This document shows positions 25,166 through 30,410 of a stretch of DNA of 64,000 bases, one piece after another; the stretch's first letter is position 1, and each line of letters begins with the position of its first letter. The translations under genes and the position numbers were made by a program. Below the pieces are notes generated by a model that worked only from the letters and a program-made list of their open reading frames with translations, was not told where the DNA came from and made no database searches. The stretch comes from the human T2T-CHM13v2.0 reference genome, Homo sapiens, in NCBI RefSeq assembly GCF_009914755.1, contig NC_060925.1; one strand, 5' to 3'.

Positions 25166-27010
25166 ATAAATGAATCAAATGGAAGTAAATGGAAAAAAAA
25201 AAAAAGGATTCATTCATTCGTAATAGGCAGTGTATCATAACTGAAAAAGATAGTGAAAATTGGTTTCAGACAAACCCAGGTAAGAATCTCACCTTCGCCA
25301 CTTGGCTGGAAAACTCTGAACAAATTATTTTTACTCTTTGGGCCTGTTTCTGCATCTATCACCTTATAAGGTTGCTGTCTGAGAATTCTACTATACAATG
25401 TAATGTATCTGTTAGAGTGTAATATATCTGTTATTAGGTTTGACCTCATACAATAGAAACACAAAATAAAAGTGTCTTACACAGGACAGCAGTTTTTTTC
25501 TTTCATGTGGAGGTCTGGAGGGCAGTGGGTATTGATTGGTTCAGTGCCTCCTGCATTAGGAATCCACGCTTCTTTCACTTTGTTGCTTTGCTGTGTGTGG
25601 GTTTCATTCCTGAGGTCCTTTCATGGTTCAACACGGCTGCTGGAGCAAATAAAAAATCAAATACACAAAAGCCCAGAGAAAGAGCCATCCACAGAGGCCA
25701 GGCAACAAATCCACTTATTCAAGTCTAGCCAAGATGAGACCCCCTTGCCACAGTGCATGAAACCAGCATATTCCACTTATTCCATTCTTGGGGTACGTTG
25801 AAACAGATCTGGAAGCAATGTCTTCTGTGTATTAAGCATCTAACACTTTACAAAGCATTTTCATATGTCTTACCACATTTGTTCTTCATAATGTTCTGAA
25901 AAGGTAAGATGAATACATCTTATTATTCCTATTGAACACTTGATTCACACAGCTGCTAAGTAACAGATTCCAACGAGTCTATAGCTAGGTCTTTGGGTAT
26001 GTTGCTGGTAATGAAAAGGTGAACAATCATGGTGCAGAAGAAAGAAAATGAGCCAAACCAGGATCCCTGGTAGAGTTGTAGTGCAAAGACTGGGGTTAAT
26101 TGTGTGGCCTCAGCCTCACTGGGCTGTTCTCCTCACCTGTAAGACCAAGATAAGAGCACTTATTTACTTCGGGGTTGTTGTGAAGATAGCAGACAATCTT
26201 AGTGCACCTGCCACTTAAGATCCGTTCAGTGAAATTATTACCTTTCACAGGTGTGTCTTTGGAAAATCACTTCCCTTTCCTGGATCTCAGTTTTCTTTTC
26301 TAGGAAAACAACATGTTTGGACTCAGCGACTGCTAAACTGTCTCCCAAACCTCGAACTCCCTCAGCCTGGGATCCTGCCTTTTATGAAAATAGTTCGGAT
26401 TGGAGCTCAGGTTGGAATTCTCGCTTTAGTTGCTTGCTAGCTGTGTGTCCCAGTAAAAGCTAAAAATTTCGGATTCCCCACATCTGTAGAATAGGGATAC
26501 ATAACATGCAGCTTATTAGAAAGGGAAGGCATGTGAGAATTAAATTAGGTCCGTGTCCAGTACCCACTAAATTGTAAAAACTTCTCAAAGGCAGGGACCC
26601 ATCTGTTTTGTAGATTTACAGAATGTCATACGTTGAAGTACGGGGGTTCGCCACGGGATTAGAAAATTTCTGTAGAGTAAGGAACAAGACACAAGGTAAG
26701 CATTCAAGAATTGTAACCATGCAATATTCTTATTTCTTACAGTCGCCTACAACAGTCCTGGTGTTTAGTAAACGGTCTGACACACACACCCATCAGGGGC
26801 TGCGGAGAGTCCGCCTGGGTAAGCTCCGCAAGGTGAGTCCCCAGAGCCGGGAACTCGCAGCCTGAGCAGACGCAGCGTAGCCGATCTTGGGTCCGCGCTC
26901 CTCCCGCCTTGCCCAGCCCTGCCCGCGGTTGGCTAGGCCCCAGGGAACGCTGCAGCCGCGGGGTGGGCAGGCGACGGCCAATCCCACGCCCGGTTCAAAG
27001 GGCCAATCAG

Positions 27011-27145
27011 GCCGTGCTTTACAGGGGCCGCGCTTTACAGGGGCCGCGCTTTACAGGGGCCGCGCTTTACAGGGGCCGCGCTTTACAGGGGCCGCGCTTT
27101 ACAGGGGCCGCGCTTTACAGGGGCCGCGCTTTACAGGGGCCGCGC
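27011..27145. repeat. 16-bp GC-rich minisatellite (GCCGCGCTTTACAGGG) x ~8.4 in the core promoter
   Basis: Read directly: one variant unit GCCGTGCTTTACAGGG (27011-27026), seven perfect units (27027-27138) and a 7-nt partial unit. Confidence 0.98.
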
Positions 27146-27199
27146 CGGCGGGGGCGGGATCGCGCGCAAGGCGGGGCTGTAGCCGCCCCGGGACCGCCC

Positions 27200-27279
27200 T
27201 GCTCAGGCGCCGTGGGGTTCGGCGCGGCTACGTGCAGAATCCGTCTAGCTAAAATGTAATTTCAGATTGGACAAGTACT
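27200..27279 (+). other. FGGY: Probable non-coding first exon 1A of FGGY (start approximate)
   Basis: Donor ACT|gtaagt at 27279/27280 just downstream of the GC boxes. The TSS cannot be fixed from sequence alone. Confidence 0.6.
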
Positions 27280-27399
27280 GTAAGTGACCCTCCTCTCAGT
27301 CCCACGTGGGCGCTGGGGGCTTTTGCTGGTGCGCAGGCTCTTAGCGCGCACGCCCAGAAAGAGGCTTCTCCAACCCGGCCCGGCCCTTCCTTCCCCTTT

Positions 27400-27522
27400 C
27401 CCGCAGTCGTTGCCTCCTCCTCCCCTGCCTCCTCCTCCCCTTCCTCCTCCTGGCCGCTTAGTCTCACACCCGCCGGGCCGTTGTTCCCGAGACGTTGTTG
27501 AGTCCCCTGTGTCCTCTTCTGG
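27400..27522 (+). other. FGGY: Probable non-coding first exon 1B of FGGY (start approximate)
   Basis: Donor TGG|gtgagg at 27522/27523 at the 3' edge of the CpG island; would join to the acceptor at 51908. Confidence 0.65.
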
Positions 27523-27912
27523 GTGAGGCGTCCGGCCACTTAAGGGAAGGGAAGGGAAGGGTCGGCCTTGACTGCATCCCCAAGGCTGCCTATTAGGTGT
27601 CTGGAACCCGTGCTGCTTCCTCTCCGATCAGTGCCCACTTATCTGTATTCAGTACTCTTTCTCTCCTCCCCTTACCCTTGTAGGACATTTTCCTGGCATT
27701 TGAGGAGCCTTTAATTCACGTCTGGCTACCGAAGGCATTTTTAGGCTAGTGTTGCTTGTAGATTTAAACGCTTCCAGCACTTGTGATAATGTTTGAGGCA
27801 CAGCTGAGTTTAGATGAGATAATGCTGTTTGGTTACAGTTATCCTGAGTAGAAAGGCCTAGGGATATCTTTTCATTTTTAGCCGTTTCCTTTTTATTTAA
27901 AGATTGACAAGG

Positions 27913-28233
<321 letters not shown>

Positions 28234-28939
28234 TCATCATGGGCTGTTTTCCACTAAAGCACTTCTGTGTCTTAACACAAATTTCTTCCCCGAAGAGTCA
28301 GTCATGACATGACCAAAGTCTGAAAAGCAGTTAATCCTTAGGTTAAATTTTAAAGTATGAGACCAGGAGGGGTGAGGTGCTTATTCTTTTGACTTGTAAA
28401 TCAGAATGAAAGAAGGGAAAGTCTTTTATTTTGTGGCTGTTATTTAAATGGTAGAGTTTTGCTTTGTATAGTTTTTGCTTGCTTTTCCTCTTTTTTTTCT
28501 ATGATCCACCACGTGTATGTCCTGATTTTTTTCCTTTTTAACTTGCTTGCTGGATTTTCCAGCCAGATGACTGCCGCTTGGTCTTCTGGGAGTCTCCTGT
28601 TAATGGGGCCCTCATGCTTGGCTCTTGACCTGATGGCCACTGGCCTGGCTCTTGGAGGACCTCCTAGTGGGAGGCCCAGAGCACTGTTATTAAGGATGAT
28701 TGGGGGAACAGATCAGAGGGGGTCAGCTGGGCCTGGAGATCAATTTTGAGGGGGAGGGAGGTTGGGAGCCTGCCTGGCTGGATTTGGAAGTCAAAACATG
28801 TGTGCTGGGAGAAGGGCATAACCCCAGAGGGTGGAGAGCCATGTCTTTCTGGATAAAATTAATAAGTTTACTGGGAGGAGGCTGGGCCTTCCAGGCTGTG
28901 TTAGTTTTTGTTGTGGGCCTTGGCTTTTCCTGGAATTTG

Positions 28940-29018
28940 GTTCCCTTTCCCTAACCTTTCACTTATTAGTTTAAATAGTTCCCTTTACCTAACCTTTCAC
29001 TTATTGATTTAAATAGTT
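28940..29018. repeat. 38-bp tandem duplication
   Basis: gttccctttccctaacctttcacttattagtttaaata followed by gttccctttacctaacctttcacttattgatttaaata. Confidence 0.9.
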
Positions 29019-29929
29019 TAAATCACAGTCAATTACCAGCTGGTTTTTAAAATAATTTGAGGTAATGAATCTTGCCCTTAATCTCCTAGCCAGAGTGGAA
29101 CCCCCTACCTCCACCCCCAGGGGGATTTGAAATGATTATTTTACCAGAACGTGCTACAGAGATCACTTACCTTCTCACCCGCCCACCTTTTTATAATGGA
29201 GGGACATAGAATCAACCCAGGTGGTGTCAGAGATCATCCAAATCAGTTCTTCATGTATTCATTTGTTCACTCATCTTGTCCACATACTTTGGGCCCAGAA
29301 CTGTGGTAGTCTCTGGGAAAGTGCAGATGAGTAAGACTTGGTCTCTGCTTTCAAGCTTTCATCCAGTTTGCTTCAATCCACTTTGATGAGGGAGATTATG
29401 TGATAGTGAGATGAGTACATTGAAAAGGTATGCCGAAGACTCCCAGGAGTTGAGAGAAGGGCAAATGGCTCAACATGGGGAAGCCATTTGGGGAGGACTT
29501 CCCAGAAGGGAATACTGGAGCCGAGTTCCAAAGCCTAAGTATGAGTGGGCTGGAGAAAGAGCGAGGGATTATATGAACCGGGAACAGCATGTGCAGAACT
29601 ACACAAGCATGGCACATGGTTGATTAGGATGGCTGTGCAGGAAAGGATAAGTTGGAAAAAATCACCTGACAGGAGGCTGGGGAGGGTGAAGGCCAGGTCA
29701 GGAAGGGTCTGGTGAATCATCTTAGGGGAGTTTGAAATATATCTCCAGGGCAAACAGTGATACATACTCTCAGGTTTATGTTATAGAAAATTAATTCTGG
29801 CTGCAGTTTGGAGAATGAATTGGATTGGCGAAGCCCGGAGAGAGGTAATTGTAGTAATATAGGTGAGAGACGTGTTAGGGTAATAGTTATGGGAGTGGAG
29901 AGAGATTAGGAAAATAGAATGGTTAGGAA

Positions 29930-30410
29930 TGTTATAAAGGTTCAGTGCCACAAAAGAAATAGCACTTGAATATCAAATTTTCTTTTTTCTTCTCAGCAAG
30001 GCCATTTACTTCTATAGAAGGGTGCGCCCTCACAGATGGAGCAATGGTGAGCGCACACCTGGACAAGGGTGGGGGGGCGGGTCTTATGCCTGACGCACGT
30101 GGCCCCTGTTGCTGTGTCGTTCCCCTATTGGCTAGGGTTAGACTGCACAGGCTAAACTAATTCCAATTGGCTAATTTAAAGAGAGTGACGATGTGAGTGG
30201 TTTGGCGGGAAAAATGGTTATGGCAGAGCAGGAAATCGGAATGAGTCAGGGTGGAGAATGAGCAGGTAATCGGAATGAGTCAGTGAGTCTGGGTGGAGCA
30301 GGTGATCGAAAAAGCTTGCTTTATGAGGACGTTAAATTTAAAAGTAGAAAAGAATTGAACATACTGACATATTGATTCTTTGAAGAGAAATTTAGAGCTC
30401 ATATCTAATG
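29930..30410 (-). mobile_element. LTR10-family solo LTR (LTR10F-like, HERV-I group) inserted in an L2 fragment
   Basis: Minus strand begins ttagatatgagctctaaatttctcttcaaagaatcaatatgtcagtatgttcaattc; repeated CCACCCTGACTCATTCCGATT units. Confidence 0.85.

What the first reader, a model, noticed from the sequence alone, without database searches (positions are those of the whole stretch)
27011..27145. Near-perfect 16-bp VNTR between the CCAAT boxes and the GC boxes/TSS of FGGY: candidate tunable genetic switch
Seen: seven identical units plus one single-mismatch unit, starting 3 nt after the second CCAAT box and ending just before the GC boxes. Each perfect unit has two CpGs and a GGGG run. Inference: (i) the homogeneity implies recent expansion or turnover, so copy number is likely variable; (ii) 16 bp is ~1.5 helical turns, so gaining or losing one unit would flip the rotational phasing of the NF-Y sites relative to the Sp1 sites/TSS, predicting odd/even rather than purely linear effects; (iii) eight G4 runs with 12-nt loops allow G-quadruplex/i-motif folding and slippage; (iv) copy number sets CpG dose and any factor-site dose. 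FGGY is a D-ribulokinase linked to the ribitol-5-phosphate/CDP-ribitol supply for alpha-dystroglycan glycosylation (established), so such a switch could be phenotypically relevant. I have an unverified recollection that this repeat has been studied, so novelty needs a literature check.
Basis: partly seen in the sequence, partly recalled or inferred. Interest (0 to 1): 0.85.

Follow-up and report, generated by a model that had tools for sequence, protein, structure and literature searches.

The report
Perfect 16-bp repeat in FGGY promoter
A real, unusually pure 16-base tandem repeat (8.5 copies) sits in the shared promoter of FGGY and its divergent non-coding partner, an undescribed example of a familiar kind of promoter repeat whose variability and effect on expression remain untested.

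Summary
Window 27010-27145 is a 16-bp array of 8.5 copies: one unit with a CpG-to-TpG change, seven identical units and a half unit. Shuffles of the window give 0 matches. The two-unit pattern occurs nowhere else in the genome. None of 100 random promoters on chr1 has a comparable array.

It lies in a CpG island between the FGGY-DT start (26922, minus strand) and an alternative FGGY start (27185). The MANE-select start (27466) is 320 bp further downstream.

The array is not transposon-derived, not an Rfam RNA, forms no hairpin and is not a canonical G-quadruplex motif. It matches none of 24 recalled factor consensus strings.

The two CCAAT boxes sit at -58/-83 from FGGY-DT but at -180/-205 from FGGY 27185. 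My best reading is a young slippage-born minisatellite acting, if it acts at all, as a length-variable spacer and CpG block. A neutral passenger is almost as likely.

Copy-number variation, odd/even phasing and any effect on expression could not be tested here. Ten paper searches found no study of this repeat. The stated link to dystroglycan glycosylation is overstated.

Verdict: a new member of a known kind, of modest interest.

The parts
27010..27145 (.). 16-bp minisatellite of 8.5 copies: one variant unit (CpG to TpG), seven identical units and a half unit. The G-richer strand is the + strand.
   Evidence: The two-unit pattern is unique in the genome.
26978..27007 (+). Double CCAAT module: pentamers at 26978-26982 and 27003-27007, 25 bp apart.
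   Evidence: A spacing of 24-27 bp is a recognised class of NF-Y double sites (PMC4889920). NF-Y binding was not tested here.
26960..26967 (+). GT box (GGGGTGGG) about 11-18 bp 5' of the first CCAAT.
27151..27158 (+). GC box (GGGGCGGG) 5 nt after the array.
27183..27199 (-). Two GC boxes read on the minus strand (CCGCCC at 27183 and 27194), straddling the start at 27185.
27185..27279 (+). Alternative FGGY first exon, whose start lies 40 bp after the array (11 RefSeq models).
27466..27522 (+). First exon of MANE-select FGGY (NM_018291.5) and 13 other models, starting 320 bp after the array.
26741..26922 (-). FGGY-DT first exon, with starts at 26922, 26905 and 26879. The CCAAT boxes lie at -58/-83 from 26922.
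26800..27500 (.). CpG island holding the whole promoter. Over 26800-27600 the GC content is 0.67 and the CpG observed/expected ratio is 0.81. The array itself has an observed/expected ratio of 1.03.
26868..27407 (.). RefSeq functional element of kind 'silencer', named 'silent region_940', covering the array.
   Evidence: On chr1, 1296 of 2055 such regions lie within 500 bp of an annotated start. Attribution to the ATAC-STARR-seq lymphoblastoid set is inferred from the naming.

Best explanation
The array is a locus-specific, evolutionarily young GC-rich minisatellite. It arose by replication slippage or unequal exchange inside the nucleosome-free core of the bidirectional CpG-island promoter shared by FGGY and FGGY-DT.

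Shown: its structure, its uniqueness, its sharp edges and its position.

Inferred: it works, as far as it works at all, as a length-variable spacer and block of CpGs. It separates the double-CCAAT/GT-box module from the GC-box core promoter of the alternative FGGY start at 27185. That module stays at the canonical distance from the FGGY-DT start.

The expected effect of more units is graded and modest. Use of the 27185 start should fall relative to the 27466 start and to FGGY-DT, and there would be more CpG substrate for methylation. An on/off or odd/even switch is not expected.
For: Structure and purity.

Uniqueness: the two-unit pattern with up to 3 mismatches gives 7 overlapping hits, all at this locus.

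Sharp edges: the flanks are no more like the unit than shuffles are. Shuffles scoring at least as high as the real flank numbered 1495 of 2000 (left 100 nt), 448 of 2000 (right 100 nt), 533 of 2000 (left 30 nt) and 1901 of 2000 (right 30 nt).

The only variant is a CpG to TpG change in the edge unit.

Geometry: the CCAAT boxes lie at -58/-83 from FGGY-DT 26922 but at -180/-205 from FGGY 27185. With 1.5 units they would lie at -68/-93, inside the 60-100 bp range stated for CCAAT boxes (PMC4889920, introduction read).

The array makes up 52% of the 263 bp between the divergent starts. Among 381 head-to-head gene pairs on chr1 the median distance is 137 bp. The value 263 sits at the 76th percentile, and 151 (the distance with seven units removed) sits at the 54th.

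Altered spacing of promoter elements is the mechanism proposed for the CSTB dodecamer (PMC9655992, passage and its references). Changed gene-to-regulator distance, site number and CpG number are listed as VNTR mechanisms in Lu et al. 2023 (PMC10234305, abstract and introduction).
Against: No copy-number variation, expression, methylation or binding data could be examined.

The MANE-select start is 320 bp downstream, and nothing shows that it depends on the CCAAT module.

The 263-bp divergent spacing is within the normal range, so the promoter is not visibly strained.

The ancestral single-unit state is assumed, because no primate orthologue could be read.

Base rates favour no effect: 76% of gene-proximal tandem repeats were non-polymorphic among 28 people, and 9422 of 39,125 VNTRs were associated with expression.
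Confidence: 0.45

Rival explanations
1. Neutral passenger. The array is a slippage product tolerated in the promoter's open region, with no measurable effect on FGGY or FGGY-DT, whether or not its copy number varies.
For: No recognisable factor site lies in the unit (0 of 24 recalled consensus strings). There is no structure beyond long-loop G4 models. The divergent-start spacing is within the normal range. The main start is far downstream. Most gene-proximal repeats are non-polymorphic in small cohorts.
Against: It sits in the core of a promoter, between the CCAAT and GC boxes. Arrays like it are rare at promoters: 0 of 100, with a 95% upper bound of 3%. All CpGs in the seven identical units are intact.
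Confidence: 0.35
2. Homotypic binding-site cluster. Each unit binds a sequence-specific factor, so copy number sets the dose of bound factor.
For: The single unit with up to 1 mismatch gives 28 genomic hits against 0 for the reversed control. Homotypic site clusters are a known VNTR mechanism (Lu et al. 2023 introduction).
Against: Of the 28 hits, 8 are this locus and 13 are one pericentromeric duplicated family. The 7 other hits are solitary. None of the 20 hits outside this locus is within 1.9 kb of an annotated start. The 6 solitary places fetched, plus one member of the duplicated family, share nothing with FGGY or each other beyond the motif. No recalled consensus matches the unit (0 of 24), although no position-weight-matrix library was available.
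Confidence: 0.1
3. Non-B DNA switch. The eight GGGG runs fold into long-loop G-quadruplexes, or the C strand folds into i-motifs, affecting transcription and driving instability.
For: There are eight GGGG runs at a 16-nt period. The ViennaRNA model with G-quadruplexes allowed and DNA parameters places two four-layer quadruplexes with 12-nt loops, at -49.2 against -32.8 kcal/mol.
Against: The array holds no canonical G3+/N1-7 motif. Its mean G4Hunter score is 0.65. The best 25-nt window (1.6, at 27136) spans the array end and the GC box, not the interior. That energy model is extrapolated to long loops. Stronger candidates lie elsewhere in the promoter: 27374-27402 on the minus strand, and a G4Hunter score of -2.04 at 27416.
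Confidence: 0.05
4. Helical-phase toggle. Each unit added or lost flips the rotational setting of NF-Y relative to Sp1 and the start, giving odd/even alternation of activity.
For: The arithmetic only: 1.52 turns per unit, with the fractional phase alternating between about 0.1 and 0.6.
Against: The two modules are about 148 bp, or 14 turns, apart at the reference length, far beyond the roughly 10-bp NF-Y/Sp1 arrangement reported. The phase drifts with the assumed helical repeat. The CCAAT boxes are positioned for FGGY-DT. No data bear on it.
Confidence: 0.05

Closest known systems
CSTB promoter dodecamer repeat (EPM1)
   Same: Both are GC-rich tandem repeats inside a promoter, upstream of the start. 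The proposed mechanism there is altered spacing of promoter elements, possibly with tetraplex formation (PMC9655992 passage citing Lalioti 1999 and Alakurtti 2000).
   Different: The CSTB unit is 12 bp, normal alleles have few copies and disease needs large expansions (recalled). Here the unit is 16 bp and there are 8.5 copies in one reference genome. No expansion or phenotype is known.
Gene-proximal / expression-associated VNTRs (catalogues such as adVNTR G-VNTRs and repeat-pangenome eVNTRs)
   Same: The unit is longer than 6 bp, and the array lies within 500 bp of a start, which meets the G-VNTR definition (PMC11975116). The published mechanisms of distance, site number and CpG number apply.
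   Different: Whether this locus is in those catalogues, is polymorphic or is an eQTL is unknown. Per-locus tables are in supplements I could not open. No main text mentions FGGY together with VNTR in that sense.
TYMS 28-bp 5'UTR repeat, MAOA 30-bp upstream VNTR, ALOX5 Sp1-site repeat (recalled, not looked up)
   Same: These are promoter or 5'-end tandem repeats whose copy number changes transcription.
   Different: In TYMS and ALOX5 each unit carries a known factor site. No such site was found here. MAOA's repeat lies about a kilobase upstream rather than in the core promoter.
NF-Y-centred bidirectional CpG-island promoters
   Same: The starts are head-to-head and 263 bp apart. There is a double CCAAT 25 bp apart with a neighbouring GT box, and no TATA box (PMC4889920).
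   Different: Here a 136-bp repeat has been interposed on one side of the CCAAT module, making the promoter asymmetric.

Membership tests
Minisatellite / VNTR | Head-to-tail copies of a unit longer than 6 bp | tested here: met
   Period 16, 8.5 copies, 99% matches.
Minisatellite / VNTR | Copy number varies among individuals | not testable with these tools
   Only one haploid reference genome was available. There were no reads, pangenome or primate genomes.
Expression VNTR (eVNTR) | Allele length or motif dose associated with expression of a nearby gene | not testable with these tools
   No expression data were available. Supplements of the eVNTR papers are closed. Main texts do not name FGGY.
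Canonical G-quadruplex motif | Four runs of three or more G separated by loops of 1-7 nt | tested here: not met
   There are 0 such motifs in the array. Motifs appear only with loops up to 12 nt. The mean G4Hunter score is 0.65.
Hairpin-forming unstable repeat | The single strand folds better than composition-matched shuffles | tested here: not met
   z = +2.45 (+ strand) and +2.20 (- strand), with 200 of 200 shuffles folding at least as well.
Transposon-derived or dispersed repeat | Related copies elsewhere, with homology beyond the unit | tested here: not met
   The two-unit pattern occurs only here. The 7 other places examined share only about 14-19 bp with the FGGY locus. No masked repeat overlaps the array in the annotation file.
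NF-Y (CCAAT) promoter module | CCAAT 60-100 bp upstream of the start | tested here: met
   Met for FGGY-DT (-58/-83 from 26922; -75/-100 from 26905). Not met for FGGY (-180/-205 from 27185; -461/-486 from 27466).
NF-Y (CCAAT) promoter module | NF-Y occupancy | not testable with these tools
   No ChIP data were available.
Bidirectional promoter | Head-to-head starts less than 1 kb apart | tested here: met
   263 bp between 26922 (-) and 27185 (+).
CpG island | At least 200 bp with GC of 0.5 or more and CpG observed/expected of 0.6 or more (criteria recalled) | tested here: met
   Over 26800-27600, GC is 0.67 and observed/expected is 0.81.
Known RNA family | Rfam covariance-model match | tested here: not met
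   Of the 3 weak hits in 26000-28000, none lies in the array.

The most novel reading that the evidence does not exclude
The array is a recent expansion, specific to apes or to humans, and polymorphic. It split an ancestrally compact, symmetric NF-Y bidirectional promoter. Its copy number now sets which FGGY start is used and the FGGY to FGGY-DT ratio, with a superimposed odd/even component from helical phase. It would then act as a heritable rheostat for ribulokinase and ribitol-kinase capacity, which could matter for the response to ribitol supplementation.
Probability: 0.08. Interest if true: 0.6.

Novelty: new member of a known kind. Interest (0 to 1): 0.3.

Why it matters
If the array is polymorphic and active, it would be a clean natural allelic series. 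Its units are identical and carry no recognisable factor site. It sits between a double-CCAAT module and a GC-box core promoter, so it could test how spacing and helical phase act in a native human bidirectional promoter.

FGGY phosphorylates ribitol in vitro (PMC13576159). It is needed for the rise in CDP-ribitol when ribitol is supplied to cells (PMC4873967). Expression alleles might therefore affect ribitol-based treatment of dystroglycanopathies.

This relevance is conditional, because FGGY loss did not change baseline CDP-ribitol or glycosylation in HAP1 cells. As it stands, the finding is a well-documented but ordinary promoter minisatellite.

Tried and rejected
Transposon or dispersed-repeat origin: rejected.

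Degenerate older units in the flanks: none above the shuffle level. The two CCAAT segments share only the 8-mer around the box, with 51 of 2000 shuffles scoring at least as high.

Non-coding RNA: no Rfam hit in the array.

Hairpin-driven instability: rejected.

Canonical G4: rejected.

Factor-site cluster: 0 of 24 recalled consensus strings matched. This is weak evidence, because no matrix library was on hand.

The RefSeq 'silencer' as evidence about the repeat: rejected as unspecific. On chr1, 562 of 2055 such regions contain an annotated start and 1296 of 2055 lie within 500 bp of one. The source paper reports about 75% at promoters (PMC9435738, passages). That these elements come from that paper is my inference from the names.

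Promoter control: I planned 120 random MANE starts with 20-kb flanks.

One search was badly designed, because it did not force the gene name, and told me nothing about FGGY. Taylor et al. 2018 on bimodal methylation of the mouse Fggy promoter could not be read. I know it only by its title and by a secondary summary (PMC10048338). Searches gave only reference-list entries. Searches were irrelevant mentions.

Supplementary tables of VNTR catalogues, where this locus would be listed if it is known, were closed.

Full report
**1. The observation**

The sequence at 27010-27145 is a head-to-tail array of a 16-bp unit. Tandem Repeats Finder reports period 16, 8.5 copies, 99% matches, no indels and a score of 265.

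Written in register, it is one unit with a single difference, seven identical units and a half unit. The one difference is a C to T change inside a CpG, in the outermost unit.

The unit with up to two mismatches matches 8 times in the window. It matches 0 times in each of 100 dinucleotide-preserving shuffles. The array is the highest-scoring tandem repeat in the 64-kb window, at 265 against 137 for the next.

- a CCAAT box ending 2-3 nt before the array;
- a GC box 5 nt after it;
- two CpGs per unit;
- eight GGGG runs 16 nt apart.

**2. Where it sits**

RefSeq places three FGGY starts in this region:
- 26750, used by one predicted model;
- 27185, used by 11 models, 4 of them curated;
- 27466, used by 14 models, including MANE-select NM_018291.5.

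FGGY-DT starts on the other strand at 26922, 26905 and 26879, and further upstream at 26320.

The array therefore lies between the divergent starts at 26922 and 27185. These are 263 bp apart, and the array makes up 52% of that distance. The main FGGY start is 320 bp beyond the array.

The region from about 26800 to 27500 is a CpG island. Over 26800-27600 the GC content is 0.67 and the CpG observed/expected ratio is 0.81, and there is no TATA box.

No minisatellite, tandem-repeat or instability feature is annotated here.

A RefSeq 'silencer' named silent region_940 (26868-27407) covers the array. On chr1, 1296 of 2055 such regions lie within 500 bp of an annotated start. The study that these names appear to come from reports about 75% of its 21,125 silent regions at promoters (PMC9435738, passages; the attribution is inferred). 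This annotation therefore says little about the repeat itself.

**3. What it is not**

- Dispersed repeat. The two-unit pattern with up to 3 mismatches occurs only here in the whole genome. The single unit with up to 1 mismatch has 28 hits against 0 for the reversed control. Eight of these are this locus and 13 belong to one pericentromeric or acrocentric duplicated family. The other 7 are solitary, including one exact copy in an XXYLT1 intron.
- Recurrent promoter motif. None of the 20 hits outside this locus is within 1.9 kb of an annotated start. The 7 places I fetched (6 solitary hits and one family member) share only about 14-19 bp with the FGGY locus.
- Array with decayed edges. The flanks are no more similar to the unit than shuffles are, so the edges are sharp.
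- RNA family. No Rfam family matches the array.
- Hairpin former. Neither strand folds better than its shuffles: z = +2.45 and +2.20, with 200 of 200 shuffles folding at least as well.
- Canonical G-quadruplex. The array has no canonical motif and its mean G4Hunter score is 0.65. Only models that allow 12-nt loops place quadruplexes there.
- Known factor site. None of 24 consensus strings that I recalled matches inside the array. This was not a matrix scan.

**4. How unusual it is**

I took 100 randomly chosen MANE-select starts on chr1 at +/-400 bp, of which 61 were CpG-island-like. With the same TRF settings:
- 0 of 100 had an array with period of at least 7, at least 5 copies and at least 95% matches;
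- 0 of 100 had at least 4 copies at 90% or more;
- 6 of 100 had at least 3 copies at 90% or more.

The nearest case was EXOSC10, with a 20-mer of 6.4 copies at 83% matches. The 95% upper bound for 0 of 100 is 3%. Such arrays are uncommon at promoters, but several hundred could still exist genome-wide.

The literature agrees that the class is large. One catalogue lists 10,787 gene-proximal tandem repeats (PMC11975116). Another reports 9422 of 39,125 VNTRs associated with nearby expression (PMC10234305, abstract).

**5. Geometry and the likely mechanism**

The two CCAAT boxes are 25 bp apart. This falls within the 24-27 bp class of double NF-Y sites described as a platform for Sp1/Sp2 and other factors (PMC4889920, passages).

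CCAAT boxes are said to lie 60-100 bp upstream of starts (same paper, introduction). Measured from the middle A, they lie at:
- -58/-83 from FGGY-DT 26922;
- -180/-205 from FGGY 27185;
- -461/-486 from the main FGGY start at 27466.

With 1.5 units they would lie at -68/-93 from 27185, and the divergent starts would be 151 bp apart. Among 381 head-to-head gene pairs on chr1 the median distance is 137 bp. The value 151 falls at the 54th percentile and 263 at the 76th.

This is what an expansion inside a formerly compact, symmetric NF-Y bidirectional promoter would look like. It leaves the CCAAT module correctly placed for FGGY-DT and displaced from the upstream FGGY core promoter.

I therefore favour a spacer-plus-CpG-block mechanism with a graded, modest effect on use of the 27185 start. 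The same logic was proposed for the CSTB dodecamer. This step is inference. The ancestral state, polymorphism and any effect were not tested. A neutral passenger is nearly as probable.

**6.

(i) Purity implies youth only loosely. At an assumed 0.5e-9 substitutions per base per year, zero changes in 120 bases gives a 50% point of 11.6 Myr and a 5% point of 50 Myr. Repeat variability rises with length, copy number and purity, yet only 3.85% of minisatellites varied within one seven-person family (PMC4027155, passages). In another study, 76% of gene-proximal repeats were invariant in 28 people.

(ii) The phase arithmetic is correct, but nothing else supports odd/even behaviour. The elements are about 14 helical turns apart at the reference length.

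(iii) G4 or i-motif folding is possible only with long loops. Better candidates lie elsewhere in the promoter.

(iv) The CpG dose is real, at 17 of 73 island CpGs. A factor-site dose is unsupported.

**7. FGGY function**

Recombinant FGGY has strong ribulokinase activity and weak ribitol kinase activity. Knock-down blocks the rise in CDP-ribitol after ribitol feeding. However, knockout HAP1 cells keep normal CDP-ribitol and normal alpha-dystroglycan glycosylation (PMC4873967, passages).

A 2026 paper confirms that human FGGY phosphorylates ribitol in vitro (PMC13576159, passages).

The link to dystroglycan glycosylation is therefore conditional on ribitol supply. It is not established for normal physiology.

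**8. Is it already known?**

- FGGY with VNTR: 10 papers held both terms (9 listed). FGGY with 'tandem repeat': 21 papers. By their titles and listed abstract starts, none concerns a repeat in the FGGY promoter. Many of the titles concern LINE-1 or transposable elements, and the rest are unrelated. Two that I opened were irrelevant mentions.
- FGGY with 'promoter' and 'repeat': 123 papers, of which I saw 30 listed. None is on this repeat.
- The unit string: 0 papers.
- Phrases such as 'FGGY promoter' and 'FGGY-DT': 28 papers. One human study reports the FGGY promoter unmethylated in liver and 'poised/bivalent' in HepG2 (PMC13264262, passages). Several cite Taylor et al. 2018.
- Taylor et al. 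[quoted passage not shown] I saw only its title and a secondary summary, because the paper is not held. Whether the mouse promoter holds a repeat is unknown to me.
- Per-locus VNTR tables are in supplements that were closed. 'Not in print' therefore holds only for the main texts in this library.

**9. Verdict**

The feature is real and striking in its purity and position. It is a new member of the well-known class of promoter minisatellites, with no evidence yet that it varies or acts. Interest is modest at 0.3. The switch reading remains possible but unsupported.

Noticed in passing
window 27411-27451 (and 27374-27402, minus strand): A CCT-rich 15-mer of 2.7 copies forms a polypyrimidine tract directly upstream of the MANE-select FGGY start at 27466. 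It holds the strongest C-rich G4Hunter window in the promoter (-2.04 at 27416). Canonical G4 motifs lie on the minus strand at 27374-27402. GC skew falls to -0.58 here. This is a better non-B DNA candidate than the 16-bp array.
   Followed up: partly
window 27542-27561: (AAGGG)4 lies just after MANE exon 1, in intron 1. It is the only canonical G4 motif on the + strand in 26700-27600.
   Followed up: no
window 27303-27308 and 26994-26999: A perfect CACGTG E-box lies between the two FGGY starts. A CHR-like hexamer (read on the minus strand) lies between the two CCAAT boxes. Both are short and could be chance.
   Followed up: no
window 26750-26832 (+) versus 26741-26922 (-): The first exon of one predicted FGGY model (XM_054337456.1) overlaps FGGY-DT exon 1 on the opposite strand. 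For that model the 16-bp array is intronic and would be transcribed.
   Followed up: no
L046 472-599 (chr1:10641040-10641840, EXOSC10 promoter): This was the nearest analogue in the control set: a 20-bp unit of 6.4 copies at 83% matches, within 200 bp of the EXOSC10 MANE start.
   Followed up: no
G000 chr9, 13, 14, 17, 20 and 21 pericentromeric/acrocentric places (one search list); L134: A one-mismatch variant of the 16-mer recurs 13 times in what looks like one segmentally duplicated family near FAM27 and FAM182 genes. The one member fetched has no homology to FGGY beyond the motif.
   Followed up: partly
L128 (chr3:197775274, XXYLT1 intron): This is an exact copy of the 16-mer, including both CpGs, in an intron. 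Its flanks are unrelated to FGGY. It is probably chance.
   Followed up: partly
window 28940-29018: A 38-bp unit of 2.1 copies at 92% matches lies at the edge of an annotated 'CDK7 strongly-dependent group 2 enhancer' (28925-30124).
   Followed up: no
window 27860-28214: A masked repeat with a partial signal-recognition-particle RNA match (27914-28000, 35.5 bits, below the gathering threshold). This is what an Alu element would give.
   Followed up: no
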